A stretch of DNA of 64,000 nucleotides from Candidatus Omnitrophota bacterium (GCA_015494465.1 WGBD01000008.1:3485-67484); one strand, 5' to 3'. Positions 28,393 through 40,454 are shown, numbered from the stretch's first letter. The notes: generated by a model not told the origin, from the letters alone. A program made the numbers and translations.

Positions 28393-28688
28393 ACCTTCCT
28401 CCCTTGCAATTGAACCTTCCCTATAAGACTGCGTTCACTATTAAACTTCAAAAAGAAGGCCTTATCAACCCAAAAATCCCGGTTTGTAACCCCCAAGCAG
28501 AACCAATATTGGGCCTGCAAGGGCCCTATGCCAGAGAGATACCGTCCTATCATTAACTGTGCAAATCAGATTTGCGTTGCTGAGGGGAAATGCGTATTGT
28601 ATGATTTTCTAGTGCGGTATGACGCTGGGCTCGTGTCTCCAATCCCAACTAGACAAACTTAAATCCGTTTACTTGGAGAAAAGAAGGC

Positions 28689-29408
28689 ATGAAGTACATA
28701 TTCTTGAGAGACGACGATGTATTCTCATTCCAAGAGCCATCCTTCAGGTGGTTTTGGAAAATAGCGGAATCTATGGATATACCTGTAATGTACGCGGTTA
28801 TCCCCGGCAAACTGGACGAGGACACCGCAAAAGTATTACTAGATAAAAAACGAGCCTCCCCGTCTAAGATCGACATAGCACAGCACGGTTACATGCACAT
28901 AAATCACAACCCGGATATATACCCAAAGTATGAGTTCGGTCCTTCGAGAAGCAAGGGTGCACAAAAAAGAGACCTTCTCGAAGGAATGAAGATAATGGAG
29001 CTTTCCTTTGGGCCTGACCTACCCCGTATATTCGTTCCTCCTTTCGACGGTTTTGACATAGTGACCTTAGAAGTGGCAGAAGAGCTGGGGATAGAGATCT
29101 TTTCTGCGGACAGTTACATCATAGGACAGAAATACAAATTTTTAAATCTACCCTACAGATTCGCAATAAACGACTACGCAGAAGATGGGACCCCGATCCC
29201 GGTTAGTTTTGAAACCATGTTGAAGAGGTACAGGCTCTACTACCTCTCAAATTACAAAGTAATTGGCATACTCCTCCACCACCAAGCATATCAAGATCCA
29301 TCTTCAAGAAGGGATCTGGCCTTATTTCTGAAATTCCTCGTGAAGGAAGAAACCAAAGGAGCAATCAAACTAATAACCGCCTCAAAGCTTCTCCAGTATA
29401 AGAGATAG
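28689..29408 (+). CDS. DUF2334 / polysaccharide-deacetylase-like family protein
   Basis: N-terminal FLRDDDV and QHGYMH motifs are characteristic of the DUF2334 deacetylase-like fold. Confidence 0.55.
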   Translation: MKYIFLRDDDVFSFQEPSFRWFWKIAESMDIPVMYAVIPGKLDEDTAKVLLDKKRASPSKIDIAQHGYMHINHNPDIYPKYEFGPSRSKGAQKRDLLEGMKIMELSFGPDLPRIFVPPFDGFDIVTLEVAEELGIEIFSADSYIIGQKYKFLNLPYRFAINDYAEDGTPIPVSFETMLKRYRLYYLSNYKVIGILLHHQAYQDPSSRRDLALFLKFLVKEETKGAIKLITASKLLQYKR

Positions 29409-30533
29409 CATCTTCTCGGCTCCCTTTAACTCAATCGAAGGGAATTCCCTCTGGTCTAAGTTCTTTAACTTTTCCATAAATCCTATTATCCTTGGCAGAA
29501 GTTCCTCCTCCTTGACAAAGATGAACACATTTGGGGCGGTATGGGTCAAAAACTCTGCCCGCACCCTCTGTTCGTTCAGACCAGGATAGGCATCGGTCCC
29601 CTCGAAAGGAACGAATACAGCAGGTACTCGATGCTTTATAATCTTCACAGCAGTGTTGTAAGAGGAAGTACAAATCGCCACTTTGGCCTTCCCTAAAAGC
29701 CCATCTATATCCCGAGCGTAAGGTATTACAACCACATTATCCGGGGCTTTTATATCACCCACATCCATCCTACTCGCAGGCCCTAACACAACTACAAACT
29801 TCTCTTGAGGCAACACCCTTGCTACCCCTATCGTGGCCCTCACGAGGCGGTCCATCACTATGCCCGATCCTCTCAACAGTAGGACATAGTCTTGACACGC
29901 AATATCCGTACGCCCACCTTGCTTGAAGGGCAAAGGCTCAGCGTCGATGTACCCAGTTAGGGAATACTTGCCGACGAACTCCTTTAGGAGAGTTCCCAAC
30001 AGAGGATTCTTCCTCATCCAAAACCTCAATTCCTCCTTCGAACAATGGAAAAACACATGGTCGACTACATCCATCCCCTTTTTTACTCTCTCCAGGTGCC
30101 TGTAATTCAGGATGGGGTAGCCCACACTGGAAAACACCTTAATCCCTCTTTTCCTAAGGGCCTTTGCCAATGCCATCATCTCTTTGAATATCTGGAATCT
30201 GCCGAAAGGGAAATACTCGAGGATGACGAAAGCATCGTCTTTAACGCGATCGAACAACCACCTGACCCTGCTGAGATCCACCAACTCCTTAGAGTAGGAA
30301 GGATCAAAAAAGGTCCTTTCTCCAAACACGGGGTAAGGCGAGAATAAAATAGGAAGATTAAGTGCGGTATAATCCAGGTACTCCTGAGCGGGAGATAAAC
30401 TAACTATCCTCAACCCTGCCCTGCTCGCGATAGCAAAAACCCTGGATGTATGGCCAAGACAGCCATAATGAGAAAAGACTATACTACCTTGACGGGCGCC
30501 TTTCAGATTGAGACGACTTTTATTCTCCCACAT
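29382..30533 (-). CDS. Putative GT-B fold glycosyltransferase, paralog 1
   Basis: A glycine/His N-terminal motif (GCLGHTSR) like GT1/GT28 donor-binding N-termini and a Rossmann-like C-terminal half. It is a paralog of 34597..35763, sharing the EYFP(F/L)G motif. Confidence 0.5.
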   Translation of the reverse strand: MWENKSRLNLKGARQGSIVFSHYGCLGHTSRVFAIASRAGLRIVSLSPAQEYLDYTALNLPILFSPYPVFGERTFFDPSYSKELVDLSRVRWLFDRVKDDAFVILEYFPFGRFQIFKEMMALAKALRKRGIKVFSSVGYPILNYRHLERVKKGMDVVDHVFFHCSKEELRFWMRKNPLLGTLLKEFVGKYSLTGYIDAEPLPFKQGGRTDIACQDYVLLLRGSGIVMDRLVRATIGVARVLPQEKFVVVLGPASRMDVGDIKAPDNVVVIPYARDIDGLLGKAKVAICTSSYNTAVKIIKHRVPAVFVPFEGTDAYPGLNEQRVRAEFLTHTAPNVFIFVKEEELLPRIIGFMEKLKNLDQREFPSIELKGAEKMLSLILEKL

Positions 30534-30536
30534 AGA

Positions 30537-31481
30537 TCATACAAAATTCCACCACTGCAAATAGCCGTGATAGGCCAGACACTTGGGGCAATCTCCCGCG
30601 TTAGCCCTTTTTATGACCGAAAAAAGTTTGTCTTCGTCTATTCCCGACACTATGTTTCCAACCGGCTCCATGTACAAACAAGGGAAGATGCTCCCATCGA
30701 CGGTGACGAAGAAACTGCAGGCGGGAGTGCGACAGGTAGTTATGAAGTCCATGTTCTCAGATTCCAGATAGCTGATAATGGGCTCCAGATAGGTAGAATA
30801 GATGAGATAATCAGATTCGCCGTACAAGTCCCTGTATTCCTTAGCTATTTCTTTCAAACTAGATCTGATCAGCCCAAAATCAGGCAGGAGTTCCTTTATG
30901 TCTATTGAATAGTTCCTGTGGTAATAGGAAGGCACCCTCTCAACCACCTTGAAGTACACTGGAATTTTCAGAGCTTTTCCAAGTTGCCAAACCCTGTGTA
31001 TCTGATGTTGATTAATTGAGGTGATCACCATCTTTAGGCTTAATGACATCCCCGGAGCCACCCTCCTCACAAACCTCACATTGTCTATCAGACTGCGGAA
31101 GGCACCATTATAACCGCGTTGCACATCGTGATACTTGCCTATACCATCTAGACTAAAGGTCATTTCCAGCCACCTAGCGTAGGGAGCAAACTTCACGACT
31201 AACTCTCGTATCTCCGGGCAAGTCCCATTCGAGGATATGTGTATACCCGTTATCTCATTCCTGAGCGCCCTTTTGAGGCAGTATTTGAGCAACCTGTAAA
31301 GATCTTCGTAAAGGAAAGGTTCACCACCCGTTATGGAAATGGAAAAGTTTTCGTACTTATCGAGAAAGGAGGTTATTCGACCGTAATCGATAGATGCAGG
31401 ACTCCTCCACAAAGAACACATCTTACACCTTAAATTGCATCTACTAGTTACCTCAAGCGTTATGTTAGAAACAGATCCCAT
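30537..31481 (-). CDS. Radical SAM enzyme with a C-terminal Cys cluster (SPASM/twitch-like)
   Basis: N-terminal CNLRCKMC (CxxxCxxC), the glycine motif SITGGEPF, and a C-terminal CRTPAC...C...CPKC cluster. Confidence 0.8.
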   Translation of the reverse strand: MGSVSNITLEVTSRCNLRCKMCSLWRSPASIDYGRITSFLDKYENFSISITGGEPFLYEDLYRLLKYCLKRALRNEITGIHISSNGTCPEIRELVVKFAPYARWLEMTFSLDGIGKYHDVQRGYNGAFRSLIDNVRFVRRVAPGMSLSLKMVITSINQHQIHRVWQLGKALKIPVYFKVVERVPSYYHRNYSIDIKELLPDFGLIRSSLKEIAKEYRDLYGESDYLIYSTYLEPIISYLESENMDFITTCRTPACSFFVTVDGSIFPCLYMEPVGNIVSGIDEDKLFSVIKRANAGDCPKCLAYHGYLQWWNFV

Positions 31482-31488
31482 ATCTCGA

Positions 31489-32439
31489 TTACACCAGAAA
31501 TTCCTCTAAATCCAGATCGACTGCGGTTATGAACTCCACATCTGAAATCCTCTCGGGAAAACTCATAACCCTGGAAGCCTTGCTTACGATAAAACCGTTA
31601 GCTATAAAAAGATCGACATAGGGTGCAGAGACGAGTACGCTAATCTTGTCAACTTTGGGATAGAATATCCCAATACCATCCAACAAGACAGACAGAGTCC
31701 AATCCGTTATCTCACCTGCAAAGTGCCAATCGATCAAATAAGCCGTGTCGTGGGAGTAACAGTCCTGCCTGATCAACAGACTCCCTATGTGTTTGTGGTC
31801 ATAAAAAACCTTAACGGCCCTATAGAAATCCCTAACTGGTTCCCTGTTAATCCTCTTCTCCCAAATACCACGCGACTTGTAAAAACGCCTAGGAGCAAAT
31901 GCGAGAAGCGAATCTACATATTCGCCAATGCCTATCTCCGTAACATCTATACGCCGATCCCGGGATCCTCTCGAGATCTTACCGTCTAATACATATACCC
32001 TACTGCACTCCTTCCAATTCATCTTGAAGTAAATCCTTTCCATATTATAATTGGGAACCGTGAGAAAGACATACTTCTTTGAAAGCAAATCCAAGTCCCT
32101 TCTGTATTCTAATAATCCTTTGGTTGCCATAACCTTGGCATTGTCCTTCTCTCCTTTGGTCCGAATGAAGTCAACACACCAGGCCAACTTTTTCTGCCCA
32201 CAAAGTTCGTTGGACAACAGAACAGCGCCAAATACTACGCACCCTGCTTCATCCCAATACAGATAAGTCTTGGTCTTATCCCCAAGGGAATACTTCCACT
32301 TGGCAACATCGACGAACTCTTTAGAACAGATAAAGTTTCGGGAAATAACTTCTTCTTGCTCCTGTAGATAAATTAGGCGGGACCAGTCGAGATCAAGGTT
32401 CTCCCTAAAACCTATAGAGGCCTCTTCACTCCAAAACAT
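31489..32439 (-). CDS. Hypothetical protein (316 aa) within the tailoring cluster
   Basis: Long ORF with island-like composition, tightly spaced between the rSAM and aminotransferase genes. No recognised motif. Confidence 0.5.
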   Translation of the reverse strand: MFWSEEASIGFRENLDLDWSRLIYLQEQEEVISRNFICSKEFVDVAKWKYSLGDKTKTYLYWDEAGCVVFGAVLLSNELCGQKKLAWCVDFIRTKGEKDNAKVMATKGLLEYRRDLDLLSKKYVFLTVPNYNMERIYFKMNWKECSRVYVLDGKISRGSRDRRIDVTEIGIGEYVDSLLAFAPRRFYKSRGIWEKRINREPVRDFYRAVKVFYDHKHIGSLLIRQDCYSHDTAYLIDWHFAGEITDWTLSVLLDGIGIFYPKVDKISVLVSAPYVDLFIANGFIVSKASRVMSFPERISDVEFITAVDLDLEEFLV

Positions 32440-32448
32440 AGCCCCTTT

Positions 32449-33555
32449 CTAATCCCCTTCCACGGAAGCTAGGGTTTCCACGACATACTTTATCTCATCT
32501 TCTTTGATAAAAGAAAAGAGCGGTAGATGGACGATCCTTTTACGATAGACTTCGGAATGTTCGCACTTGCCAAGAGAATACCTTGCAAATACCTTCCTCT
32601 CGTGTAAGGGCACATAGGGCCTGAGGGCATATACCCCCTTCGCTTCCAGTTTCGACAAAACATCATCGGAATCCGACACGAATACCGGGAAATTCTGCAA
32701 CACGACGAATTCCTCTTCGCGTTCTTTTAAGTAATCGATGTGGTAGTCGTCGCACAACTTCTCATACAGTCTTTTAGCGCTCCTACGGGATTTTATTATG
32801 TGGTTTATGTACCTGAACTTCACATTAATCGATACATAGTCCATCAAGTACATGGATGCAAATCTCTTGTTAAGACCTGTCAATCCGTAGTCGTCTCTCC
32901 AGATCTGGGTATAATCTCTTATCCTATTAAACCTCTCGTCGTCAAAGCAGATCATCCCACCTCCACCCCCGCAAGAAGAAATGGGCTTATAGTAGGAAAA
33001 GGAAAAACACGCGATGTCGAAAAAGGAACCCAAGTAGCGGTCTTTATACTTAGAACTCTCGGCCTGGCACACATCTTCTATAATAGCTACACCATACTTC
33101 TCCTTTATTCGCCTTATGCCTTCAATATCTGCCGGGAAGCCGAACATGTGAGGCACGATAATGGCCTTTATAGTTTCCCCATACTCATTGACTGCCTTTT
33201 CTATTTCTTGGAGGGATATAGAAAATCTCTCCGGCTCTACATCGACGATCACGGGCTCCGCTCCGGAATACAACACTGCGTAGCCTACTGCGGAATATGT
33301 GACGGAAGGCACGATGACCCTATCTCCCTTTCCTATACCTAGGGCGTAAAGGGACAGTTGAAGGGCATCGGTCCCGGAGTTTACCGCCACTGCAAACTTC
33401 CTTCCGATGTAACCCGCAAACCTTGCTTCGAACTCTTTTAACAATGTTTCTATGTCCGATAAACCATTCACACATGACAAAACTCGAGATAATTCCTCAG
33501 CATACTTAGATGCCAGAGACTTGTCCACCCTCATGGATTCATACCTAACCTTCAT
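32449..33555 (-). CDS. DegT/DnrJ/EryC1/StrS-family PLP-dependent sugar aminotransferase. The start is revised to the ATG at 33555, which overlaps the upstream rSAM stop as ATGA.
   Basis: AVAVNSGTDALQLSL, the spacing of Asp/Lys, and overall length match DegT-family aminotransferases. The 29-codon extension in the ORF track overlaps the upstream gene. Confidence 0.8.
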   Translation of the reverse strand: MKVRYESMRVDKSLASKYAEELSRVLSCVNGLSDIETLLKEFEARFAGYIGRKFAVAVNSGTDALQLSLYALGIGKGDRVIVPSVTYSAVGYAVLYSGAEPVIVDVEPERFSISLQEIEKAVNEYGETIKAIIVPHMFGFPADIEGIRRIKEKYGVAIIEDVCQAESSKYKDRYLGSFFDIACFSFSYYKPISSCGGGGGMICFDDERFNRIRDYTQIWRDDYGLTGLNKRFASMYLMDYVSINVKFRYINHIIKSRRSAKRLYEKLCDDYHIDYLKEREEEFVVLQNFPVFVSDSDDVLSKLEAKGVYALRPYVPLHERKVFARYSLGKCEHSEVYRKRIVHLPLFSFIKEDEIKYVVETLASVEGD

Positions 33556-34607
33556 ATATTCCCCTTCCGGAGCTCTAACCCGGGGATCTTCCTCTCGATC
33601 TTCACGATCTGCTCGGTCAGATGCCGATAGGCCTGAAACCAATTATTGTGATCTCGATCCATATACCTTATAGCCAACCCAGCATTGAAATTACTAAACT
33701 CCCTGTAGGACGCAGTGGGATTCTTCTTGAAAAAGTCCAATAACTTCCTTAAGTAGTCTATCACCACCCGTTGATTGATGACAATTCCATCGTCTTTTAT
33801 GTGGAAGAGAGTAAATTTATCCCGAATATTCTCTGGGAACGACAACAAGGTCCAATTGGGGAGGACTTTCCCATTAGGCTGAATCACCAGATCCATCCCA
33901 TATCCCATAGAAAGAGAATACATTTTTCCTATGAAGCCCTCTCCTCTGATACGCCTATATCTAGTCTTAAGCTCCCATGTCAACAAACGCTTGTAGCGTT
34001 CCAGAAATTTTCGCGCGCTCTCACTATCCCACGGAGCCAAAAAGGCCGGGTGCACTTCTATGTCGTAAAAGCCCAACCTTATCAATTCGAAAAAATTATC
34101 TTCCATAAAATCAACCTCATCTGGATGCACGGTCATCGTGGGATTTATGTCAACACCGCGATTGATGAGCTCGGCGACATTCCTTACATATACATCATAG
34201 GTAGCACCCGTTATCCCTAGCCGATGTCTTTGGTTTGAAGGCAATTCCCCGTCCAAGCCTGGCTCCACGGATATCCTGTTCTCCAAAACAAACCTAATGT
34301 GATCCTCCTGCCAATAGTACATGTTACTCTGAATGCTACAATCCCTATACGGAAATAACCCAAACACTCTATTGAATATGTACTTAACCTTATCCCAGAC
34401 GATTAAGGGCTCTCCTCCGGAGACAACGACATTGTGCCTTTTCATTCTCGGTAGTGCGGACAACAAAGTATCTATCTGGGCATAACTTAATTCCGTGGAA
34501 TTGGTCCTATACCTGAAGAAACAATAATCGCAATTCAGATTGCATTTATCCGTGACGAAAATCCAGAGATTTTTAAGAGGGACTTCTGCAAGTATCTTAG
34601 TTACCAT
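33552..34607 (-). CDS. Radical SAM enzyme (no obvious SPASM cluster)
   Basis: N-terminal FVTDKCNLNCDYCFF (CxxxCxxC) and VVSGGEPL; 351 aa. Confidence 0.8.
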   Translation of the reverse strand: MVTKILAEVPLKNLWIFVTDKCNLNCDYCFFRYRTNSTELSYAQIDTLLSALPRMKRHNVVVSGGEPLIVWDKVKYIFNRVFGLFPYRDCSIQSNMYYWQEDHIRFVLENRISVEPGLDGELPSNQRHRLGITGATYDVYVRNVAELINRGVDINPTMTVHPDEVDFMEDNFFELIRLGFYDIEVHPAFLAPWDSESARKFLERYKRLLTWELKTRYRRIRGEGFIGKMYSLSMGYGMDLVIQPNGKVLPNWTLLSFPENIRDKFTLFHIKDDGIVINQRVVIDYLRKLLDFFKKNPTASYREFSNFNAGLAIRYMDRDHNNWFQAYRHLTEQIVKIERKIPGLELRKGNI

Positions 34608-35763
34608 CAGTTACATCATTTAGTATTTCCCTTAAAAACACGGACTCTCCCTTAAAGTCCTCTTCTCTCAAGCAATGCGTTGGGGTTTCATCGCCCAACT
34701 CCCTTATCCATCCCGCTACCGTATTAACGGGCATCCTAGGACCTTCTATGACTCGAGCCGGAATAAACCTGCCTACGACAGAGGCCCTTGCTAATTGTTC
34801 CACGGCATCTAACGGGTATATAACGGTAGGCTTACGCCAATAAATCAATTTGGTGATAGTGTTATAGCCCGCCATGTTAATACTTAGTCTACACTTGCTT
34901 AACAAAAAGTTAAACTTCTCAAGCGGAAGAGATTCGTAAATCGTAACATTATCCGGTGCAACTTTGCGGACCTCCTCTACGAGATCATCCCTAGAAGAAG
35001 GCCCCAACACGAGAACGAACCTATCGTTTGGCATCCTCTTCGCCAAGACGATGGCCAAGGATATGATCCTATCGTTTATCACACCACCTCCCCGTGAAAC
35101 CATAACAAAATCCTTAGGGATGTCGAGAGGGGAAGTCTTTGTGTCTATGACGAAACCGGTGTACACGATCCTATCGCGATACCTATCCAGAATAGCCAAG
35201 AGGTCCTGCACCCCTCTAGAGATCTCGGCCATTTCCCGTAGATAGAGCCTTAAAAAGTCCTCCGTACTATGTATGAAAATTTTATCGTAGTACCTGCCTA
35301 TTATAGCATCTGCGCCTCTTACATGGCTCACATATCCACAAGAGCAATATATCCTCCTCACCTTAGGGCGTATCGCCTCCAGCACCGTGTAAAGCTCCTC
35401 CGTCCAAAAGGCGTCACCCAAGGGGAAGTATTCGGTAATGAAGACATCCGGAGAAAAGCTCTCTATCTCGGAGAGGATAACCGATATCCTCTCGCTCATG
35501 GCCTTCCTACCCCAAGGGCTGGACAAAACTTTAGAATGAAGGGGATCAAACCTGTCCACAAACATACCTTTTTTTGCGTACGAATGCGGTAATAAGATCA
35601 CTTTCCCCAATCTGCCAAAATCCAACAACCGCTGTCTCTTACCTCCTTGAAGGATCAGCAATTCGACATCCAAATTGGCCTTTAGGTAGGATAGTAAATT
35701 ATAGGTTCTCAGACTGTGGCCGAAGCTATTATAATGATTGTAATACAAACATATCTTAATCAT
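34597..35763 (-). CDS. Putative GT-B fold glycosyltransferase, paralog 2
   Basis: NSFGHSLRTYNLLS and EYFPLGDAF parallel GCLGHTSRVFAIAS and EYFPFGRFQ in 29382..30533. Confidence 0.5.
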   Translation of the reverse strand: MIKICLYYNHYNSFGHSLRTYNLLSYLKANLDVELLILQGGKRQRLLDFGRLGKVILLPHSYAKKGMFVDRFDPLHSKVLSSPWGRKAMSERISVILSEIESFSPDVFITEYFPLGDAFWTEELYTVLEAIRPKVRRIYCSCGYVSHVRGADAIIGRYYDKIFIHSTEDFLRLYLREMAEISRGVQDLLAILDRYRDRIVYTGFVIDTKTSPLDIPKDFVMVSRGGGVINDRIISLAIVLAKRMPNDRFVLVLGPSSRDDLVEEVRKVAPDNVTIYESLPLEKFNFLLSKCRLSINMAGYNTITKLIYWRKPTVIYPLDAVEQLARASVVGRFIPARVIEGPRMPVNTVAGWIRELGDETPTHCLREEDFKGESVFLREILNDVTDGN

Positions 35764-35780
35764 ACAGACCGATCGACATC

Positions 35781-36620
35781 ATGAATATTTACATTATTCT
35801 AAACCTCGCGATTGCCTTGTTCTTCTCTAGAACCGACTTATTATACAAAAGGATACCAAACATTCCCATTGCTATCGTCATTTTAATGGGCACGGGTCTC
35901 AATGCATATCTATTTCCAAACCGCATTCACATGATGATCCTAAATACGCTCCTTGCGACAGCCATAGCCTTCATCCTATTCTGGTTCGACATCTGGAAAG
36001 CAGGTGACGGTAAACTCCTTATTGCATTTACGGCTTTGACACCACCTTTTTTTATCGCCAACATAATTCCCCCACCTATTATCCTGACTTCCTTAGCTTT
36101 TGTACTAGGGCTAGGGGTATCCCTTCCGCCGATGGCCTTCTCTCTTTGGAAGACAGTGAGGAAAGATCCTCCAAAGATAATGGAAATAGCCTCTGATCTG
36201 GCGGAAAAGATAGCGATAGCCATTAGCACGATATGGATCATCCGGATATTTCTAAGGAACACCGTGAAGAACAACATGATCATGTACCTCCTAGCCTATG
36301 CTATAATCTCTAGCCTAAAAACGAATTGGCTTTCTAGACAAAATAAAACCTTGGTCCGAGGGATAACGGTGCTGGGATTGACAGGTCTGCTCGTGGCCTC
36401 CCGCTACCTTAGATACTTCGATGTGAAGTCCTATCTATTGATTACCACGGTCTACATCTCCATCTATTCCGCAATCGACTTGCTTTTAAAACACATTCCT
36501 GAGGAAGCAGCCAAAAAGCGCATACCTCTGGCCCCATTGATGGCCTGTGCTCAGATGCTAATAATATCAGCGCCTCCTCAGACAATGCAGTACATCTTTC
36601 GGATGCTACGGATAATATGA
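35781..36620 (+). CDS. A24-family aspartic peptidase (prepilin/preflagellin peptidase-like, TadV/CpaA type)
   Basis: Polytopic membrane protein with both catalytic Asp contexts: TDLLYKRIPN (first Asp plus the RIPN motif) and WKAGDGKLLIAF (the GxGDxKL motif). Confidence 0.7.
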   Translation: MNIYIILNLAIALFFSRTDLLYKRIPNIPIAIVILMGTGLNAYLFPNRIHMMILNTLLATAIAFILFWFDIWKAGDGKLLIAFTALTPPFFIANIIPPPIILTSLAFVLGLGVSLPPMAFSLWKTVRKDPPKIMEIASDLAEKIAIAISTIWIIRIFLRNTVKNNMIMYLLAYAIISSLKTNWLSRQNKTLVRGITVLGLTGLLVASRYLRYFDVKSYLLITTVYISIYSAIDLLLKHIPEEAAKKRIPLAPLMACAQMLIISAPPQTMQYIFRMLRII

Positions 36621-37819
36621 GAAGATCCCCGCCAATAACATCCATTAAGATAGACAAGATATCTCCCTATCAGTTAAAGAAACTCAAGAACATAATCCAG
36701 AATAGGCACCCCTTTCCACTACTGATATACAATGTCCCTTACTGTCTATTCCCAAAAGTGCCCCACTGGATAGTGGCTGAATACGACGACGGAGACAAAA
36801 CAGAACAGTGTCAACGATGCGCCTGGAACTTACTCTGTCCTGGCTTTCCTTTTGACAGAGTAAGATCTACTACGCCAACCCCCATTGAGGACAAACCAAA
36901 TGAGGTGGTCATAGAGATATGTGGAAAGTGCCAACTATCGTGTGAATTCTGTAGATTTAGCAACAGCTCAACTGTAATAATAGAAACCTCCCAGATCTTT
37001 TCCATAATAGACGAGGCCCATATGATGGGGGTATCAACCATAAGGTTGACCGGGGGAGAACCCCTGCTCCACCCGGAAATCGACATAATCGTAGGCTACA
37101 TCGAAGAAAAGGGTATGAATTGCATCGTAAATACGAACGGATTATCGAGAAGGATCGTTGAACTTGCCAAACGGCATAATAACTTACAAAATGTATTGGT
37201 TTCTATACAATATAAAGACCTGTTCAACAAAAAACTCATCATCCAAAAGTTAAACAATCTAGCCCTACTAAAGGCCCATACAGCTATCGTAAGGATCGGA
37301 ACCGTAATACCACAACGAGTGAACTATCGGCAATTCGTTTTTCGGATGGCAAAGGTCATATACAAATTGCCTGTATTCCTGTGGGAGTTGTACAGGCCAT
37401 TCTCTCCTGAATGTAGACCGATAACGATCGATAGGCAAGGCTGGGAATCCATAACTAAAGGAATAACCGAACTCAAAAAGAGAGGTTTTCCTCACAAACT
37501 GGGGATAGCCAACAGCGTTCCGTTCTGTTACATGGACGAGCTGTCCAAATTATTGCTGGGCAACTTTACCGACGATGGACATACTCGAATAGTCTTCTCA
37601 GCACAGTACGAAGAATTTATCCCGTCCTACTTCTCCAACTTACTACTTGGCAAGTCCCTGATGAAAGCGTGGGACAACCCTGTCCTTCGAGCAAGGAGAA
37701 ACCTGGGGTGTTTGCCCAAACAATGCGACAGCTGTACATTAAGAAATATCTGCAGAGGAGGGTCTTACTCTATGTGGCCCCAGGAAGACCCAATGATACC
37801 TAAAAATACCTCTTTTTAA
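36617..37819 (+). CDS. Radical SAM / SPASM-like enzyme with an N-terminal Cys-containing extension
   Basis: ICGKCQLSCEFC (CxxxCxxC) about 100 aa in, LTGGEPL, and a C-terminal CDSCTLRNICRGG cluster. Its start overlaps the A24 peptidase stop (ATGA). Confidence 0.8.
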   Translation: MRRSPPITSIKIDKISPYQLKKLKNIIQNRHPFPLLIYNVPYCLFPKVPHWIVAEYDDGDKTEQCQRCAWNLLCPGFPFDRVRSTTPTPIEDKPNEVVIEICGKCQLSCEFCRFSNSSTVIIETSQIFSIIDEAHMMGVSTIRLTGGEPLLHPEIDIIVGYIEEKGMNCIVNTNGLSRRIVELAKRHNNLQNVLVSIQYKDLFNKKLIIQKLNNLALLKAHTAIVRIGTVIPQRVNYRQFVFRMAKVIYKLPVFLWELYRPFSPECRPITIDRQGWESITKGITELKKRGFPHKLGIANSVPFCYMDELSKLLLGNFTDDGHTRIVFSAQYEEFIPSYFSNLLLGKSLMKAWDNPVLRARRNLGCLPKQCDSCTLRNICRGGSYSMWPQEDPMIPKNTSF

Positions 37820-38489
37820 ACTCGAGATAATCTCTATACCCAAAGGTGGTTACGGCGGAATAAAAGTAGCTTAATCCAGAAAGTTCCTTGGCCTTGCCTC
37901 TTCCCGATAACACCTTGCCCAACAATCGAAAGGCCTTTTCCATGTATTCCTTGGCCTTACAACCGCAGTAATCCAAGGTCAAGAATTGGAGGATGTACAC
38001 CGCAAGCAAGTCCCTCTCTGTATACGGCAATAACCCTTCTACCCCACTTTTGTAATATTGATACAAGTAGAAAAACAATTTCAGATCTTCCTCTGTAGCT
38101 ACTCGATCTTCCATAAGCTCGTCTTCGATGAGGTAAGAAAAGGACATAAATTTTTCCAAGTCGTTCCCGGTCAAAGCATCGCACAAGGACCTAAATTCGC
38201 GATTAGTGAGACCACCGCAGGCATCAGAAGAGACCGCCTGGATAAAACTAACCATATCAGAAGGAATCTCGTCATAATAGGCAAGGATAAAACCTGCCTT
38301 ACCCAACGCCAAGGCCCGGGGAGCCAGCATCACCTCAACATAGTCAACGACATCTTCCTTTCCAGCATAAGGGACGACTGAATCCTTTACATATGCCAAT
38401 AACTCGTCCAATCTAAGAGGGATATCCGCAGAGAAGGCGTAACCACCAATACCTAGGGTACAGAGCAAGATAACAAGCCACTTCATCAT
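37800..38489 (-). CDS. Secreted hypothetical protein (signal peptide MMKWLVILLCTLGIGGYAFSA). The start is revised to the ATG at 38489, behind a strong AGGGGAAGGGG Shine-Dalgarno sequence.
   Basis: Signal peptide followed by 200 aa with no recognised motif. It lies 10 nt downstream of precursor peptide 2. Confidence 0.55.
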   Translation of the reverse strand: MMKWLVILLCTLGIGGYAFSADIPLRLDELLAYVKDSVVPYAGKEDVVDYVEVMLAPRALALGKAGFILAYYDEIPSDMVSFIQAVSSDACGGLTNREFRSLCDALTGNDLEKFMSFSYLIEDELMEDRVATEEDLKLFFYLYQYYKSGVEGLLPYTERDLLAVYILQFLTLDYCGCKAKEYMEKAFRLLGKVLSGRGKAKELSGLSYFYSAVTTFGYRDYLEFKKRYF

Positions 38490-38499
38490 CCCCTTCCCC

Positions 38500-38835
38500 T
38501 TAGTAACAATGGGCATTGTGCGTGGTCAACCTGTTCTCATTGTGGTGAGATACCTTACAAGAGGCCTGCGTCGGCAACTCGTTCACATGAGACAAGTGAT
38601 AATTACCGTTTATGTGACGCGGGTGCTCTTTGGTTATAAGGCATCCGCTCTTTCCTAGATGCTCCGGGACGGTTCCATTGAAATGGGAAGTGTGACTACA
38701 AGAAGCATACCCTAGCTCGGCGATAGCTGACAAAAACCCCGAACACAAAATCCCGGCCTTTACGATCTCGTCCCGCCTCACAAAACCGGATTCGTCCGCT
38801 AAGAAGTCGTACAACTTACGAGTTATCCTGTTCAT
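38500..38835 (-). CDS. Precursor-like peptide 2 (111 aa): Flp-prepilin-like leader MNRITRKLYDFLADESG plus a His/Ser/Cys/Asn-rich C-terminal region ending ...NAHCY
   Basis: A perfect AGGAGG Shine-Dalgarno 3 nt upstream. It is a paralog of the upstream peptide, sharing DFLxDESGFVxRDxxVxxGI. The C-terminal half (SCSHTSHFNGT...HPRHINGNYHLSHVNE...SCKVSHHNENRLTTHNAHCY) is low-complexity and metal-ligand-rich. Confidence 0.6.
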   Translation of the reverse strand: MNRITRKLYDFLADESGFVRRDEIVKAGILCSGFLSAIAELGYASCSHTSHFNGTVPEHLGKSGCLITKEHPRHINGNYHLSHVNELPTQASCKVSHHNENRLTTHNAHCY

Positions 38836-38844
38836 ACCCCTCCT

Positions 38845-39090
38845 TCAGTAAGTACAGTACGAACTATGGGTAACATTCTTGTTCACATGATGCCAACTAC
38901 ATCCAGCCATTCCACTGGTGTGAACCGAACCATGGCTGGAGGTGTGGTTACAATGAGCTGAGGCCTCCAGGGTAGAAACCAATGACACCGCGGAAAGGAT
39001 GGCCATACCTTTTATTCCCGACCTAACCAGCGAATCCCGGGAAACAAAACCAGATTCGTCCATCAAAAAATCGCCTATCTTCTTTATCAC
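38845..39090 (-). CDS. Precursor-like peptide 1 (81 aa, GTG start): leader (M)IKKIGDFLMDESG plus core ...AHCNHTSSHGSVHTSGMAGCSWHHVNKNVTHSSYCTY containing His-Xaa-Ser triplets
   Basis: The GTG start at 39090 overlaps the TGA stop of the rSAM/SPASM gene (GTGA), with an AAGGA upstream. The 134-aa version in the ORF track would overlap the rSAM gene. The leader aligns with peptide 2. The core has HTS/HGS/HTS/HSS repeats and 4 Cys. Confidence 0.6.
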   Translation of the reverse strand: MIKKIGDFLMDESGFVSRDSLVRSGIKGMAILSAVSLVSTLEASAHCNHTSSHGSVHTSGMAGCSWHHVNKNVTHSSYCTY

Positions 39091-40454
39091 CCTATCCTTT
39101 GCATTCCCCACGCCTGAAGCTCCTCCTCGTACTCTTCGTAAAGACAAAAGAACAAGCGTATAACCGCGTTGTGGAATTCCAACATCGAAGAATGGCCAAG
39201 TATAGAGCCCGTCTCCTGGTAGGTGTACACAGGGCAGGTCCCCGTCCACGCTATAAAGGGATTACTTGGATCCACGATGTCCAGACAACTCGCAGTGGCC
39301 ATCCCTATAACGGTATCGTGGGCCAAGACATCTTTGTAGTCGTCTTTTAAGACATTACCGATGCGGAACATATCCCTATCTTCGAGCATCCTAGCCTCGT
39401 CGCAGGTGTAAACATCTCCGTTAGGCATGTAAGCAAGGACATTCCTCCCCGCACCACACGGACAACACATGTCCACATAACTGGGATCGGAATAATACAA
39501 TATCTTTTGGGCGACATTGGACATCATCCTCTCTTTAATTGTAATTCCCGACCTGTTCAGATTCAACATATATCTCACAGCTTTCTCGTAGACGCTCATA
39601 AATTCATCCAGAGAATAACCTATTTTCTGCCATGTCTCCGGATCCACATTGATCTTACTAAGGGGTCTAAAGGCTATAGTCTTGATGCCCATATCCACAT
39701 AAGAGTCTATTATCTCCTTCCAATACTTAAGGCTTTCCCTGCTTATGGTCGTGATCAACGAAACAGAAGCCGACCGTCTTTGCAATAGATCAATTGCCTT
39801 CCGCACTACATCGTGGGTAGGCCTTCCGTCGACATAACGGCGATTGAAGTCGTGGACCTGACTTGGCCCATCGTAAGACACGCAAATCCCAACGCCTTTT
39901 TCTTTCAAGAAATCCACCTTCTCTTCGTCAAGCAGAGAACCATTGGTCACCAAAGATATCTCCAGATCCTTCGTTCCGTTATTCCACTCCCTTGCCTTTT
40001 CAACCATAAACTTTAGGGTCTCCCAATTCAAAAGAGGCTCGCCTCCTTGAAATTCCAAGGAGACGCTGTACCTTCTACTATCAAACAAAAACTTCAAGAT
40101 GTGGGCAGCCACCTCCAAACCCATTCTCCTTTTTTCATTACTCCTAGCCTGGCAATACACACAATCGAAATTACATTCCGTGGTAAGGACCGCGATGTGA
40201 AGACCAACATCCGAAAAGAGATGGCTATTCAACGACCTGAAACGGCCCGTTATGTCGTCCAAATTAGCCTCTGAAATGACGATCCCTCGTCTTTCCAATT
40301 TCTCTAGCAGAAAGGGATCTAACTGATCGATGTCTCCCAATCGAAACTGAGAGATGTCATCTAAGAGGGTCCATCCCCCAAACCTATTAGAGATCAAGTA
40401 CTTACCCGTCTTCTCAAAGTATTGCACATAAAAAGGCAGAAATACCCGTTTCAT
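39087..40454 (-). CDS. Radical SAM/SPASM-domain peptide-maturase-like enzyme with an N-terminal RRE-like (PqqD-like) extension
   Basis: About 90 aa precede TECNFDCVYCQ (CxxxCxxC). The glycine motif is EFQGGEPLL. The C-terminal Cys-rich region (MCCPCGAGRN...YTCDEA...ASCLD...CPVYTY) is SPASM-like. The gene is translationally coupled to the precursor peptide. Confidence 0.8.
   Translation of the reverse strand: MKRVFLPFYVQYFEKTGKYLISNRFGGWTLLDDISQFRLGDIDQLDPFLLEKLERRGIVISEANLDDITGRFRSLNSHLFSDVGLHIAVLTTECNFDCVYCQARSNEKRRMGLEVAAHILKFLFDSRRYSVSLEFQGGEPLLNWETLKFMVEKAREWNNGTKDLEISLVTNGSLLDEEKVDFLKEKGVGICVSYDGPSQVHDFNRRYVDGRPTHDVVRKAIDLLQRRSASVSLITTISRESLKYWKEIIDSYVDMGIKTIAFRPLSKINVDPETWQKIGYSLDEFMSVYEKAVRYMLNLNRSGITIKERMMSNVAQKILYYSDPSYVDMCCPCGAGRNVLAYMPNGDVYTCDEARMLEDRDMFRIGNVLKDDYKDVLAHDTVIGMATASCLDIVDPSNPFIAWTGTCPVYTYQETGSILGHSSMLEFHNAVIRLFFCLYEEYEEELQAWGMQRIG

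What the first reader, a model, noticed from the sequence alone, without database searches (positions are those of the whole stretch)
28689..35763. Sugar-tailoring-like sub-cluster: three additional rSAMs, two paralogous GT-B glycosyltransferases, a DegT aminotransferase and a deacetylase-like protein
The block reads: DUF2334/deacetylase-like (+); GT paralog 1; rSAM with a C-terminal Cys cluster; a 316-aa hypothetical; DegT-family PLP aminotransferase (ATGA-coupled to the next gene); rSAM without SPASM; GT paralog 2. The combination of DegT with radical SAMs resembles pathways making unusual amino/deoxy sugars. Two glycosyltransferases sit next to a RiPP-like cassette. Together these suggest either glycosylation of the modified peptide (glycocin-like, but with a different GT family) or a surface-glycan module travelling with it. 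Either would be unusual.
Basis: inference. Interest (0 to 1): 0.6.

Follow-up and report, generated by a model that had tools for sequence, protein, structure and literature searches.

The report
Sugar-tailoring genes beside His-Xaa-Ser peptide cassette
A real, undescribed set of glycosyltransferase, amino-sugar and radical-SAM genes is fused here to a divergent His-Xaa-Ser peptide system (a family recently shown to block phage DNA entry), and it probably decorates a secreted peptide with amino sugars, though no product has been seen.

Summary
The seven genes exist as described, with two corrections. Only two radical SAM (rSAM) genes lie inside the coordinates; the third is at 36617-37819. DegT starts at 33555.

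They form half of a 13-kb low-GC island between dapA and uvrA.

What each gene looks like:
- The two glycosyltransferases (GTs) are ancient paralogs of a small GT-B family. Its nearest structures are GT1 natural-product GTs, not the GT2 enzymes of glycocins.
- DegT, the DUF2334 (NodB-like) protein and both rSAMs keep their catalytic residues.
- The 316-aa orphan is tentatively a tandem GNAT.

Comparative genomics over 46 GT-anchored and 80 HxsB-anchored loci, mostly Candidatus Omnitrophota, shows two separable blocks:
- an Hxs block that often carries its own GT;
- a DUF2334-GT-rSAM-DegT-rSAM block.

They are fused in the window's lineage and a few others. Elsewhere they are apart, sometimes in one genome. 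When apart, the sugar-like block sits beside Cys-rich pilin-like proteins and type IV pilus genes, never beside wzx/wzy/wzz.

Best reading (about 0.4): amino-sugar glycosylation of a secreted, rSAM-modified peptide. This is a new variant of a known kind. The chemistry is untested.

The parts
28689..29408 (+). DUF2334 / NodB-like (CE4-type) putative metal-dependent de-N-acetylase. It is convergent with GT-a.
   Evidence: PF10096 scores 35.2 bits (cutoff 26); PF01522 scores 17.2, below its cutoff. In a 20-sequence family alignment D9, D10, H66 and H70 are invariant and H197 and H198 are nearly invariant (at least 90%). This fits an Asp-His-His metal triad plus catalytic residues. There is a faint NodB-domain match in the PDB. 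It lies next to a GT in 24 of 40 loci.
29382..30533 (-). GT-a: a GT-B glycosyltransferase-like protein, the paralog lineage that sits next to DUF2334.
   Evidence: 28% identical to GT-b, E = 6e-30. It aligns with the conserved GH..R, GGG and GYNT..P..EQ..R motifs. Its own orthologs in L002, L003, L006 and L007 are each adjacent to DUF2334. Only sub-threshold matches to PF04101 and TIGR01426.
30537..31481 (-). rSAM314: a radical SAM enzyme with a C-terminal auxiliary-cluster (twitch/SPASM-like) Cys motif.
   Evidence: PF04055 scores 47 bits; SPASM scores 17.3, below cutoff. Best NCBIfam match is N_Twi_rSAM at 71 bits; HxsC scores only 48 bits against a cutoff of 267.9. C250, C268, C298 and C301 are invariant and C15, C19 and C22 are at least 90% conserved across 31 homologs. 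Best PDB sequence match is SkfB.
31489..32439 (-). hyp316: an orphan protein, tentatively a tandem-GNAT N-acyltransferase.
   Evidence: No Pfam, NCBIfam, PADLOC or PDB sequence match. Only 4 hits among 1.84 billion representative proteins. The AF2 model is poor (pLDDT 53; residues 150-290 are acceptable). The leading Foldseek hits are GNAT or tandem-GNAT acyltransferases (VipF, Eis, GlcN N-acetyltransferase, MshD, FemX), with E between 1e-6 and 1e-4.
32449..33555 (-). DegT/DnrJ/EryC1-family PLP aminotransferase. Its start is ATGA-coupled to the rSAM351 stop.
   Evidence: PF01041 scores 231.6 bits. Best NCBIfam matches are LegC-family at 163 bits and PseC at 156 bits, both far below their cutoffs. 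Best PDB match is 7b0d at 183 bits, followed by the sugar aminotransferases QdtB, WbpE, NtdA, ArnB and BtrS. K190 and Q164 are invariant and D161 is at least 90% conserved across 29 homologs. The ATGA overlap is seen directly in the sequence.
33552..34607 (-). rSAM351: a radical SAM enzyme with a single cluster and no SPASM or twitch domain.
   Evidence: PF04055 scores 61 bits. Best NCBIfam matches are PapB ranthipeptide maturase at 73 bits, then CXXX-repeat maturase and HxsB. Best PDB match is CteB (5wgg). Only C22, C26 and C29 are conserved Cys across 37 homologs.
34597..35763 (-). GT-b: a GT-B glycosyltransferase-like protein, the paralog lineage that sits next to A24/rSAM400 and rSAM351.
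   Evidence: AF2 model with pLDDT 87.9 and pTM 0.88. Top Foldseek matches in the PDB are GT1 natural-product GTs (YojK, CalG1, OleD, UrdGT2, SpnG, GtfB), with E between 1e-12 and 1e-10 and TM about 0.6. The family profile matches GT1 and MurG sequences in the PDB at E about 1e-8. The invariant motifs are listed.
35781..36620 (+). Context: a membrane protein like an A24 prepilin peptidase.
   Evidence: PF01478 scores 26.9 bits (cutoff 26.5). D19 and G75-D76-x-K78 are invariant in 18 homologs. It is paired with rSAM400 in 14 of 40 GT-anchored loci and is present in 19 of 78 HxsB-anchored loci.
36617..37819 (+). Context: rSAM400, a radical SAM enzyme with a C-terminal Cys cluster.
   Evidence: PF04055 scores 52 bits. 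C105, C109 and C112 plus C304, C370, C373 and C379 are invariant.
37800..38516 (-). Context: a 238-aa protein with an N-terminal hydrophobic, signal-like segment. It follows the peptide genes.
   Evidence: No family match. A protein in this position is conserved after the peptide in related loci (clusters C17 and C14).
38500..38835 (-). Context: precursor-like peptide pep111 (HxsA3-like).
   Evidence: NF038309 HxsA3 scores 18.5 bits, below cutoff. It has the leader motif FLADESGFVRRD, a hydrophobic helix and a His/Ser/Cys-rich core ending in HCY.
38845..39111 (-). Context: precursor-like peptide pep88 (HxsA3-like).
   Evidence: NF038309 scores 24.6 bits, below cutoff. It is called as an 88-aa gene on the source contig. 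The core ends in YCTY.
39087..40454 (-). Context: HxsB-like rSAM/SPASM maturase.
   Evidence: TIGR03978 scores 315.9 bits against a cutoff of 370.
40451..40666 (-). Context: a conserved 71-aa ORF between HxsD and HxsB.
   Evidence: A 65-88 aa ORF occupies the same position in most related cassettes.
40659..41033 (-). Context: HxsD-like protein.
   Evidence: TIGR03976 scores 47.7 bits against a cutoff of 50. The source contig carries a precomputed PF27806 HxsD hit.
41034..41549 (-). Context: a bactofilin-domain protein with an N-terminal hydrophobic, signal-like segment, at the head of the cassette.
   Evidence: PF04519 scores 34.4 bits. It is conserved at this position in 6 loci.
28400..41650 (.). 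A compositionally distinct island that contains all of the above.
   Evidence: G+C is 0.451 against 0.558 and 0.571 in the flanks. The flanks are dapA and uvrA. Island proteins are 28-59% identical to L002 while the flanking proteins are 82-93% identical. There are no tRNA genes, flanking repeats or integrase.

Best explanation
The seven genes are the accessory glycosyl / amino-sugar tailoring half of one functional island. The other half makes a secreted His-Xaa-Ser-type peptide modified by radical SAM enzymes.

Proposed working (inferred, not shown):
1. The two small precursors have a Lys-rich leader with a conserved F-L-x-D-E-S-G-F-V-x-R-D motif, a hydrophobic helix and a His/Ser/Thr/Cys-rich core ending in Tyr. 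HxsB and the other rSAMs modify them.
2. A soluble GT1-like GT-B enzyme transfers a hexose or HexNAc from a nucleotide sugar onto the core.
3. The NodB-like DUF2334 protein removes the N-acetyl group.
4. A carbonyl is made on the sugar. It could come from an rSAM acting as a dehydrogenase, or at the nucleotide-sugar level from a host 4,6-dehydratase. DegT converts it to an amine.
5. The tandem-GNAT-like protein re-acylates an amine, and the second GT adds a further sugar.
6. The A24-like peptidase and export finish the product.

Shown here: gene content, folds, conserved catalytic residues and gene linkage. Inferred: acceptor, donor, order of steps and product.
For: - Tight operon. GT-b, rSAM351, DegT, hyp316, rSAM314 and GT-a are separated by -11, -4 (ATGA), +9, +7 and +3 nt.
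- The whole island, from HxsD to DUF2334, is conserved as a unit with different flanks and internal rearrangement in L002, L003-5, L006 and L007.
- GTs of this rare family sit directly inside Hxs cassettes that lack any other sugar gene (L032, L033, L040, L041, L045, L046, L058). In L058 the order is HxsD-HxsB-peptide-secreted protein-GT; elsewhere the GT follows HxsB or the secreted protein directly. In those loci the only acceptor encoded nearby is the peptide or its partner protein.
- 14 of 40 species-level GT loci have Hxs genes within the flanks held. The GT family gave only 11 hits among 5.8 billion proteins in the word-indexed search.
- The GT fold is closest to GT1 enzymes that glycosylate natural-product aglycones, including peptide-derived ones, with soluble NDP-sugars. 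The donor-binding motif and an N-terminal His are conserved.
- DegT keeps K190, D161 and Q164. DUF2334 keeps the Asp-His-His pattern. rSAM314 keeps an auxiliary-cluster motif.
- hyp316 resembles tandem-GNAT amine acyltransferases such as MshD and a glucosamine N-acetyltransferase.
- Established knowledge (mine, not tested here): the sequence 'GT, then deacetylase, then N-acyltransferase' is used in mycothiol and aminoglycoside pathways. The pair 'rSAM dehydrogenase plus DegT-type aminotransferase' is used by BtrN/BtrS in butirosin biosynthesis.
Against: - No product or activity data exist.
- The link is facultative. 14 of 40 loci have the DUF2334+DegT+rSAM314 core without Hxs genes in the flanks held, and only 3 of 78 HxsB-anchored loci have the GT.
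- The island has no nucleotide-sugar 4,6-dehydratase or nucleotidyltransferase. The nearest ones are 7.6 kb and 14 kb outside it, among housekeeping genes.
- The nearest relatives of both rSAMs are peptide maturases, not sugar rSAMs.
- The GTs reach no curated family threshold.
- The hyp316 assignment rests on a low-confidence model.
- Gene maps for related loci come from my own ORF caller and BLAST labels, with flanks of at most 10 kb.
Confidence: 0.4

Rival explanations
1. The block is a self-standing system that builds or tailors a cell-surface glycoconjugate, for example by glycosylating pilin-like surface proteins or a lipid-linked sugar. It lies beside the Hxs cassette only because both belong to a fast-evolving surface/defence island.
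For: - The DUF2334-GT-rSAM314-DegT-rSAM351 core occurs without Hxs genes in the flanks held in 14 loci.
- Two genomes carry the two blocks at separate loci: L019 with L045, and L044 with L046.
- When alone, the core sits next to Cys-rich proteins with a prepilin-type signal (KRG|QSIIEY), a T2SSE ATPase, PilM, PMT_2 membrane glycosyltransferases, a GT2 and sulfotransferases.
- The island diverges far faster than its flanks, as surface-antigen loci do.
Against: - GTs of the same family are embedded in Hxs cassettes that lack the rest of the block.
- No wzx, wzy, wzz, polyprenyl-phosphate transferase or oligosaccharyltransferase is in the window's island.
- The window's island has no pilin-like Cys-rich protein, so the only candidate substrates encoded there are the Hxs-type peptides.
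Confidence: 0.28
2. The island makes a small molecule derived from the peptide, in the manner of mycofactocin. rSAMs modify the conserved C-terminal H-x-S-(C/S)-Y end, a peptidase releases it, DegT and the GNAT remodel it, and the GTs glycosylate the released fragment.
For: - 23 of 45 distinct related peptides end in Tyr and 5 end in Trp.
- Several rSAMs, a peptidase and GTs are encoded together.
- From my own knowledge, not tested here: mycofactocin combines a C-terminal Tyr precursor, an rSAM, a peptidase and a glycosyltransferase.
Against: - Related HxsA3 proteins carry up to 52 His-Xaa-Ser repeats or large C-terminal domains. These look like polypeptide products.
- The E. coli HxsA acts as a processed protein (PMC13128918).
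- No mycofactocin-family model matches above cutoff.
Confidence: 0.12
3. DegT and the rSAMs act directly on peptide side chains without any sugar. For example, an rSAM oxidises a Ser to an aldehyde or ketone and DegT converts it to an amine. The GTs would then have a separate role.
For: - Both rSAMs are closest to peptide maturases, and HxsB is related to anaerobic sulfatase-maturing enzymes that oxidise Ser or Cys.
- A PLP aminotransferase acts on a ribosomal-peptide ketone in daptides (PMC10036551).
Against: - The daptide enzyme is a class III aminotransferase (PF00202), not a DegT.
- Apart from the top hit 7b0d (annotated only as glutamine--scyllo-inositol transaminase), the close solved relatives of this DegT whose molecule names identify a substrate act on nucleotide sugars, sugar phosphates or inososes.
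- DegT co-occurs with the DUF2334-GT pair far more often than with HxsB.
Confidence: 0.08

Closest known systems
His-Xaa-Ser (HXS) system: HxsA, HxsB, HxsC and HxsD. It is an antiphage defence system that blocks phage DNA entry (Li et al., Nat Commun 2026, PMC13128918).
   Same: HxsD-like and HxsB-like genes lead a cassette that is followed by His-Xaa-Ser-type secreted peptides. Sugar-free relatives such as L125 pass the curated cutoffs for HxsB, HxsC and HxsA3.
   Different: - In the window, HxsB (316 against 370), HxsD (47.7 against 50) and HxsA3 (at most 24.6 against 65) all fall below cutoff, and there is no HxsC.
- The peptides are 88-111 aa with only about 2 HxS motifs plus Cys residues, and they lack a peptidoglycan-binding domain.
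- The cassette carries an A24-like peptidase, three extra rSAMs, two GTs, DegT, DUF2334 and a GNAT-like protein.
- The paper reports four-gene systems, 99.7% of them in Pseudomonadota. The relatives here are mostly Omnitrophota.
Glycocins (sublancin, glycocin F, thurandacin) and their SunS/ThuS-type glycosyltransferases.
   Same: The concept is the same: a ribosomal peptide glycosylated by a dedicated GT encoded next to it.
   Different: From my own knowledge, glycocin GTs are GT2 (GT-A fold). These GTs are GT-B with GT1/GT28 as nearest relatives. No amino-sugar tailoring genes are known in glycocin clusters.
GT1-family natural-product glycosyltransferases (OleD, CalG1-4, GtfB, SpnG, YojK).
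   Same: They are the best structural matches. The fold, the C-terminal NDP-sugar motif and an N-terminal His are shared.
   Different: Sequence identity is only 12-15%. No curated GT1 model reaches its threshold; TIGR01426 scores 16 bits against 260. The genomic context is a ribosomal-peptide cassette rather than a PKS or NRPS cluster.
Mycothiol and aminoglycoside (butirosin/neomycin) pathway logic: GT, then deacetylase, then amine acylation; and rSAM dehydrogenase (BtrN) plus DegT-type aminotransferase (BtrS).
   Same: The same kinds of enzyme are encoded together: GT-B, a deacetylase-like protein, DegT, a tandem-GNAT-like protein resembling MshD and Eis, and an rSAM with an auxiliary cluster. 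Wider relatives add B12-rSAMs and APH-type kinases.
   Different: - There is no 2-deoxy-scyllo-inosose synthase or inositol-phosphate synthase.
- The deacetylase is DUF2334/NodB-like, not LmbE-like.
- The rSAMs do not match BtrN.
- The resemblance to these pathways is recalled from knowledge, not tested.
Serine-rich-repeat adhesin glycosylation (GtfA/GtfB) and pilin or flagellin O-glycosylation with DegT-derived amino sugars.
   Same: In those systems, cytoplasmic GT-B enzymes or amino-sugar pathways decorate Ser/Thr-rich secreted proteins (my own knowledge). Here the candidate substrates are Ser/Thr/His-rich secreted peptides, and in relatives they are pilin-like proteins next to type IV pilus genes.
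   Different: The GT family is different. There is no accessory Sec system and no oligosaccharyltransferase. Several rSAM enzymes are integral to this system.

Membership tests
GT-B glycosyltransferase (GT1/GT28-like) | A fold of two Rossmann-like domains. | tested here: met
   AF2 model with pLDDT 87.9. The 50 best Foldseek hits are GT-B enzymes, with E down to 3e-12.
GT-B glycosyltransferase (GT1/GT28-like) | A C-terminal nucleotide-sugar binding motif (G-x-N-[ST] ... P ... [DE]-Q) and an N-terminal catalytic His. | tested here: met
   Y300, N301, T302, P317, Q323 and R326 are invariant; G15, H16, R19, G299 and E322 are at least 90% conserved across the 12-sequence alignment that includes both paralogs.
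GT-B glycosyltransferase (GT1/GT28-like) | Reaches a curated family threshold (Pfam PF04101 or PF13528; NCBIfam MGT or MJ1255). | tested here: not met
   Scores of 16.5 against 22, 16 against 25, 16.4 against 260 and 17.9 against 195.9 bits. CAZy/dbCAN assignment could not be run.
GT-B glycosyltransferase (GT1/GT28-like) | Glycosyl transfer activity and the identity of donor and acceptor. | not testable with these tools
   Needs enzyme assays.
DegT/DnrJ/EryC1/StrS aminotransferase | Pfam PF01041 above threshold. | tested here: met
   231.6 bits against a cutoff of 19.8.
DegT/DnrJ/EryC1/StrS aminotransferase | A PLP Schiff-base Lys and the Asp/Gln of the cofactor pocket. | tested here: met
   K190 and Q164 are invariant and D161 is at least 90% conserved across 29 homologs.
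DegT/DnrJ/EryC1/StrS aminotransferase | Membership of a named equivalog (LegC, PseC, WecE, ArnB, DesI). | tested here: not met
   The best matches are LegC-family at 163 against 420 and PseC at 156 against 423.5.
DUF2334 / NodB-type (CE4) deacetylase | Pfam DUF2334 above threshold. | tested here: met
   35.2 bits against 26.
DUF2334 / NodB-type (CE4) deacetylase | Pfam Polysacc_deac_1 above threshold. | tested here: not met
   17.2 bits against 23.1. The only PDB match is a faint NodB-domain hit, E = 0.029.
DUF2334 / NodB-type (CE4) deacetylase | An Asp-His-His metal triad and catalytic Asp and His. | tested here: inconclusive
   D9, D10, H66 and H70 are invariant and H197 and H198 are at least 90% conserved. 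Their equivalence to the CE4 motifs is by pattern, not by structural superposition.
His-Xaa-Ser (Hxs) system | HxsB, HxsC, HxsD and HxsA each above the curated NCBIfam cutoff. | tested here: not met
   HxsB 315.9 against 370. HxsD 47.7 against 50. HxsA3 at most 24.6 against 65. The best HxsC-like score is 48 against 267.9. A precomputed Pfam PF27806 HxsD hit is on record.
His-Xaa-Ser (Hxs) system | Gene order with HxsD and HxsB next to a His-Xaa-Ser repeat protein. | tested here: met
   The order is HxsD-71aa-HxsB-pep88-pep111. The same order occurs in bona fide Hxs loci from the metagenome scan.
His-Xaa-Ser (Hxs) system | Antiphage activity. | not testable with these tools
   It is shown only for the E. 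coli system (PMC13128918). No PADLOC model matches except generic viperin-type rSAM hits.
Glycocin cluster | A GT2 (SunS-type) glycosyltransferase. | tested here: not met
   Both GTs are GT-B, and the island has no GT2 domain.
O-antigen / S-layer glycan cluster | wzx/wzy/wzz, or an initiating polyprenyl-phosphate transferase, linked to the block. | tested here: not met
   No island protein matches such a family. None was found among the neighbours sampled in Hxs-free relatives. A weak Polysacc_synt ORF lies 21 kb away in native-GC DNA.
Radical SAM peptide maturase (SPASM/twitch) | A CxxxCxxC radical SAM core. | tested here: met
   PF04055 scores 47 and 61 bits. The motif is invariant in rSAM351 and at least 90% conserved in rSAM314.
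Radical SAM peptide maturase (SPASM/twitch) | An auxiliary Fe-S cluster domain. | tested here: inconclusive
   rSAM314 has four invariant C-terminal Cys, but SPASM scores 17.3 against 21.5. rSAM351 has none.
Radical SAM peptide maturase (SPASM/twitch) | Acts on a peptide substrate. | not testable with these tools
   The nearest relatives are SkfB, CteB and PapB, at low scores of 29-73 bits.
GNAT (tandem) N-acyltransferase, for hyp316 | The GNAT fold. | tested here: inconclusive
   The leading Foldseek hits are GNAT or tandem-GNAT proteins, but the model has pLDDT 53 and there is no sequence-level match.

The most novel reading that the evidence does not exclude
The island turns a secreted His-Xaa-Ser-type peptide into a glycopeptide carrying free-amine (cationic) sugars. 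That would be an amino-sugar-decorated version of the Hxs effector. The E. coli effector is proposed to stop phage DNA entry through its positive charge. Here the HxS repeats have shrunk to about two per peptide, and sugar amines made by the deacetylase and DegT would supply the charge instead.

If true, this would be the first glycosylated Hxs product. It would also be a ribosomal peptide modified both by rSAM enzymes and by on-peptide amino-sugar tailoring. It would be widespread in Omnitrophota and also found in single Saccharibacteria and archaeal (including Woesearchaeota) MAGs.
Probability: 0.25. Interest if true: 0.8.

Novelty: new variant of a known kind. Interest (0 to 1): 0.55.

Why it matters
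The Hxs family was linked to a function only in 2026, as a periplasmic block to phage DNA entry, and the chemistry its rSAM enzymes install is still unsolved. This locus and its relatives show three things:
- Outside Proteobacteria the family has much larger versions.
- Those versions recruit a prepilin-type peptidase, extra rSAMs, a rare GT1-like glycosyltransferase family and an amino-sugar toolkit.
- The same toolkit also partners with Cys-rich pilin-like proteins.

If the peptides are glycosylated, this would be a new type of glycosylated ribosomal peptide. It would also give a route into the surface and defence biology of the uncultured, host-dependent Omnitrophota. The island diverges much faster than its flanks, which fits a locus under arms-race pressure.

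Tried and rejected
- **Sugar-modifying rSAMs (BtrN/DesII-like).** Rejected as the closest relatives. The best NCBIfam and PDB matches are peptide maturases, at low scores.
- **An adjacent legionaminic-acid or WbuXYZ-type sugar cluster that could supply DegT.** The LegB-like dehydratase at 49299-50291 looked promising. Its neighbours, however, are RuvA, HisA and a TtuA-like tRNA sulfurtransferase, so there is no sugar operon there.
- **Classical type IV prepilin cleavage site in the peptides.** The Gly is conserved, but the +1 residue varies (F, K, N...) and about 10 polar residues come before the hydrophobic helix. I keep only the weaker statement that an active-looking A24 peptidase co-occurs with these peptides.
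- **Mobile element.** No tRNA, integrase or flanking direct repeats.
- **Regulatory RNA.** No Rfam match in the window.
- **Promoter and terminator scans.** Not above shuffled expectation in a useful way.
- **Known defence-system models.** PADLOC gives only generic viperin-type rSAM matches.
- **First genome scan.** The scan with the 12-sequence alignment failed for lack of conserved stretches. It was repeated with a tighter alignment.
- **Literature.** No paper describes this cluster in Omnitrophota. A search for the identity of PDB 7b0d found nothing.
- **Source names.** None of the seven proteins carries a name in public sources.

Full report
**Observation.**
The window has a sharply bounded low-GC island at about 28400-41650. 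Its G+C is 0.451 against 0.558 and 0.571 in the flanks. It lies between dapA (27517-28392; TIGR00674 at 401 bits) and uvrA (41718-44534).

The seven ORFs of the finding are all there:
- DUF2334 at 28689-29408 (+), PF10096 35.2 bits against a cutoff of 26.
- GT-like A at 29382-30533 (-).
- An rSAM at 30537-31481 (-).
- A 316-aa protein with no family match at 31489-32439 (-).
- DegT, PF01041 at 231.6 bits.
- An rSAM at 33552-34607 (-).
- GT-like B at 34597-35763 (-).

The two GT-like proteins are 28% identical over 354 residues, E = 6e-30. The stop codon of rSAM351 overlaps the DegT start as ATGA, so DegT runs 32449-33555. The six minus-strand genes are packed with spacings of -11, -4, +9, +7 and +3 nt. 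Only two rSAM genes lie inside the given coordinates. The third (36617-37819) is next door.

**What the neighbouring "RiPP-like cassette" is.**
Genes 38500-41033 encode the following:
- An HxsD-like protein (TIGR03976 47.7 bits against 50, plus a precomputed PF27806 hit).
- A conserved 71-aa ORF.
- An HxsB-like rSAM/SPASM enzyme (TIGR03978 316 against 370).
- Two small peptides with weak HxsA3 matches.

The His-Xaa-Ser system was shown in 2026 to be an antiphage defence system in E. coli. There, HxsB and HxsC mature a periplasmic HxsA effector that blocks phage DNA entry. That paper reports 99.7% of systems in Pseudomonadota and more than 99.8% with just four genes (PMC13128918).

The window's version falls below every curated cutoff and has no HxsC. 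It also carries an A24 prepilin-peptidase-like membrane protein with both catalytic Asp motifs conserved, and another rSAM.

**The proteins of the block.**
- **GT-b.** It gave a confident AF2 model (pLDDT 87.9). The best PDB neighbours are GT1 natural-product glycosyltransferases (YojK, CalG1, OleD, UrdGT2, SpnG, GtfB), with MurG further down. A family profile matches GT1 and MurG sequences at E about 1e-8. The family keeps an N-terminal GH..R, a GGG loop and GYNT..P..EQ..R. No curated GT model reaches its threshold.
- **DegT.** K190 and Q164 are invariant and D161 is at least 90% conserved. Among solved structures it is closest to 7b0d and then to nucleotide-sugar, sugar-phosphate and inosose aminotransferases. 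It fits no named equivalog.
- **DUF2334.** D9, D10, H66 and H70 are invariant and H197 and H198 nearly so. This is a NodB-like pattern.
- **rSAM314.** It has four invariant C-terminal Cys. rSAM351 has none.
- **Relatives of the rSAMs.** Their nearest relatives are peptide maturases (SkfB, CteB, PapB-type), all at low scores.
- **The 316-aa protein.** It is an orphan, with 4 hits among 1.84 billion representative proteins. Its model is poor (pLDDT 53). The leading structural matches are GNAT or tandem-GNAT acyltransferases (VipF, Eis, a glucosamine N-acetyltransferase, MshD, FemX). I treat this as tentative.

**Conservation.**
The word-indexed protein search found only 11 GT-b relatives among 5.8 billion proteins. 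Their long contigs all carry the whole island, from HxsD to DUF2334. The flanks differ, and in L002 the DUF2334/GT-a end has moved to the other side and extra rSAMs and a kinase have been added.

A profile scan of one genome per species found 40 loci. Most are in Candidatus Omnitrophota, including Velamenicoccus archaeovorus. Others are in MAGs labelled Planctomycetales or Planctomycetia, one Saccharibacteria MAG and two archaeal MAGs.

My ORF calling, BLAST labelling and clustering resolve two recurrent blocks:
- **Block i:** HxsD, small ORF, HxsB, peptide, secreted protein, then rSAM400 and A24 on the other strand, then a GT.
- **Block ii:** an rSAM/SPASM, DUF2334, GT, rSAM314, often another rSAM, DegT and rSAM351 (often twice). 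Many loci add a PaaK-like adenylating enzyme, an ApbA-type reductase, B12-rSAMs, a methyltransferase, an Asn-synthase-like PP-loop enzyme and an APH-type kinase.

Counts, for the 40 GT-anchored loci:

| Content | Loci |
|---|---|
| Hxs genes present | 14 |
| DUF2334+DegT+rSAM314 core present | 19 |
| Both | 5 |
| Core without Hxs genes in the flanks held | 14 |
| Hxs genes plus the GT, but no DegT or DUF2334 | 6 |

Two genomes carry the two blocks on different contigs (L019 with L045; L044 with L046).

In the reverse test, an HxsB profile scan of metagenome contigs returned 80 loci. After removing duplicates of genome loci, only 3 of 78 have the GT, which is 3 of the 33 loci of at least 12 kb. 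The sugar-free ones are bona fide Hxs systems (L125: HxsC 309, HxsB 513 and HxsA3 104 bits, all above cutoff).

An unbootstrapped NJ tree places the window's GT-a and GT-b in separate clades, each with its own orthologs in L002, L003, L006 and L007. GT-a orthologs lie next to DUF2334, and GT-b orthologs next to A24 or rSAM351.

Where block ii stands alone, its neighbours are as follows:
- Cys-rich proteins with a prepilin-type signal (KRG|QSIIEY).
- A T2SSE ATPase and PilM.
- PMT_2 membrane glycosyltransferases and a GT2.
- Sulfotransferases and signalling genes.

No wzx, wzy or wzz was found there or in the island. So the block is separable from the Hxs cassette, but it is not an O-antigen or S-layer module.

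**The peptides.**
Across these loci the peptides share a Lys-rich leader with a conserved F-(L)-x-x-E-E-G-(K/N/F)-(I/V)-S-(K/R) motif. A hydrophobic helix follows, often with an AxA-like site, and then 2 to 52 His-Xaa-Ser/Thr motifs. Of 45 distinct sequences, 23 end in Tyr and 5 in Trp. The window's two peptides have few repeats and several Cys, and they end in CTY and HCY.

**Evolution of the island.**
Between the window and L002, the flanking CarB, CarA and DapA proteins are 93, 82 and 92% identical. The island proteins are only 28-59% identical. Against L006 the figures are 96-99% for the flanks and 76-91% for the island. The island is lower in G+C than its flanks in each lineage examined. 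There are no tRNA genes, integrase or flanking repeats. This is the pattern of a hypervariable surface or defence locus.

**Interpretation.**
The most economical reading is that GTs of this family glycosylate secreted polypeptides that are modified by rSAM enzymes, and that block ii elaborates the sugar through deacetylation, amination and re-acylation. The window's lineage has fused both blocks.

The strongest support is that the GT is embedded in Hxs cassettes that have no other sugar gene. The GT1-like fold, typical of soluble enzymes acting on natural-product aglycones, points the same way.

The main weaknesses are these:
- The linkage is facultative.
- The island has no sugar-nucleotide dehydratase or nucleotidyltransferase. 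The nearest are a LegB-like enzyme at 49299-50291 and an NTP_transferase at 13743-14489, both among housekeeping genes.
- There are no chemical data at all.

I put this reading at 0.40, a stand-alone surface or pilin glycoconjugate module at 0.28, a mycofactocin-like peptide-derived small molecule at 0.12, and direct peptide transamination without sugars at 0.08. The last has a daptide precedent, but with a different aminotransferase class. The remainder covers no functional link.

**Novelty.**
No paper in the searchable library describes this arrangement, and none of the proteins carries a name in public sources. It is best filed as a new, much enlarged variant of the Hxs kind. It is built from known enzyme superfamilies, with one rare GT family and one orphan protein.

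**Caveats.**
- Gene maps of related loci come from my own ORF caller and BLAST labels.
- Flanks are at most 10 kb.
- MAG taxonomy is taken from record titles.
- The window's own taxon is inferred only from the relatives of the island genes.

Noticed in passing
window 28400-41650: The whole 13-kb island is about 11 points lower in G+C than its flanks. It also diverges much faster. Against L002 the flanking CarB, CarA and DapA proteins are 82-93% identical while island proteins are 28-59% identical. This pattern is typical of hypervariable surface or defence loci. No mobility genes, tRNA genes or flanking repeats were found.
   Followed up: partly
window 38500-39111 (pep111, pep88) and peptides in L003-L126: HxsA3-type peptides share a conserved leader motif F-L-x-(D/E)-E-(S/E)-G-(F/K/N)-(V/I)-S-(K/R)-(D/E), a hydrophobic helix and often an AxA-like site. 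They carry 2 to 52 HxS/T repeats. 23 of 45 end in Tyr and 5 in Trp. The meaning of the conserved C-terminal aromatic residue is unexplained.
   Followed up: partly
window 35781-36620; also L125:7856-8881 and L108:7850-8881: An A24 prepilin-peptidase-like membrane protein with both catalytic Asp motifs conserved (D19; G75-D76-x-K78) recurs in HxsA3-type cassettes, in 19 of 78 HxsB-anchored loci. The four-gene E. coli HXS system is not described as having one. It may be the leader peptidase for these peptides.
   Followed up: partly
window 35763-35781: Only 17 bp separate the divergent start codons of GT-b and the A24-like gene. Any promoters must therefore lie inside coding sequence. The consensus promoter scan was uninformative.
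   Followed up: no
window 29382-30533 and 30537-31481: Public gene calls for these two genes are shorter (343 and 294 aa). They start downstream of the conserved GH..R motif of the GT and the CxxxCxxC motif of the rSAM, so they are probably mis-called starts.
   Followed up: yes
L012, L014, L016, L019, L035, L036 (e.g. L019:2042-3070): Cys-rich proteins of 340-414 aa (27-37 Cys) with a prepilin-type N-terminus (KRG|QSIIEY plus a hydrophobic helix) sit beside the DUF2334-GT-DegT block and an APH-type kinase. A T2SSE ATPase or PilM lies nearby. They are candidate substrates where no Hxs peptide is present.
   Followed up: partly
window 41034-41549: A 171-aa protein with an N-terminal hydrophobic, signal-like segment and a bactofilin-type domain (PF04519, 34.4 bits) heads the cassette. 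It is conserved at that position in 6 loci. Bactofilins are normally cytoplasmic polymers, so a secreted one would be odd.
   Followed up: no
window 44515-48561; L005:10576-14191: A 1348-aa protein with weak CofD and PMM matches lies just beyond uvrA. A 1390-aa PGM/PMM-domain protein flanks the island in L005. Whether they are orthologs, or linked to the island's sugar chemistry, was not tested.
   Followed up: no
window 49299-50291: A LegB-like NAD-dependent 4,6-dehydratase (TIGR04180 428 bits against a cutoff of 475) stands alone among housekeeping genes (RuvA, HisA, a TtuA-like protein, SecA). It could supply a 4-keto sugar to DegT, but it is not part of the island.
   Followed up: yes
L086:5434-6864, L115:3697-5166, L119:1618-3138, L082:2749-3516: Some HxsA-like proteins fuse the leader and a long HxS repeat array (28-52 repeats) to a C-terminal domain of about 300 aa with no assigned function.
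   Followed up: no
window 2268-5189 and 5985-7286: A 973-aa protein has a weak GspK-type pseudopilin match at its C-terminus. A 433-aa protein has a borderline Polysacc_synt (Wzx-like) match (28.4 bits against 28.2). Both lie in native-GC DNA more than 20 kb from the island.
   Followed up: no
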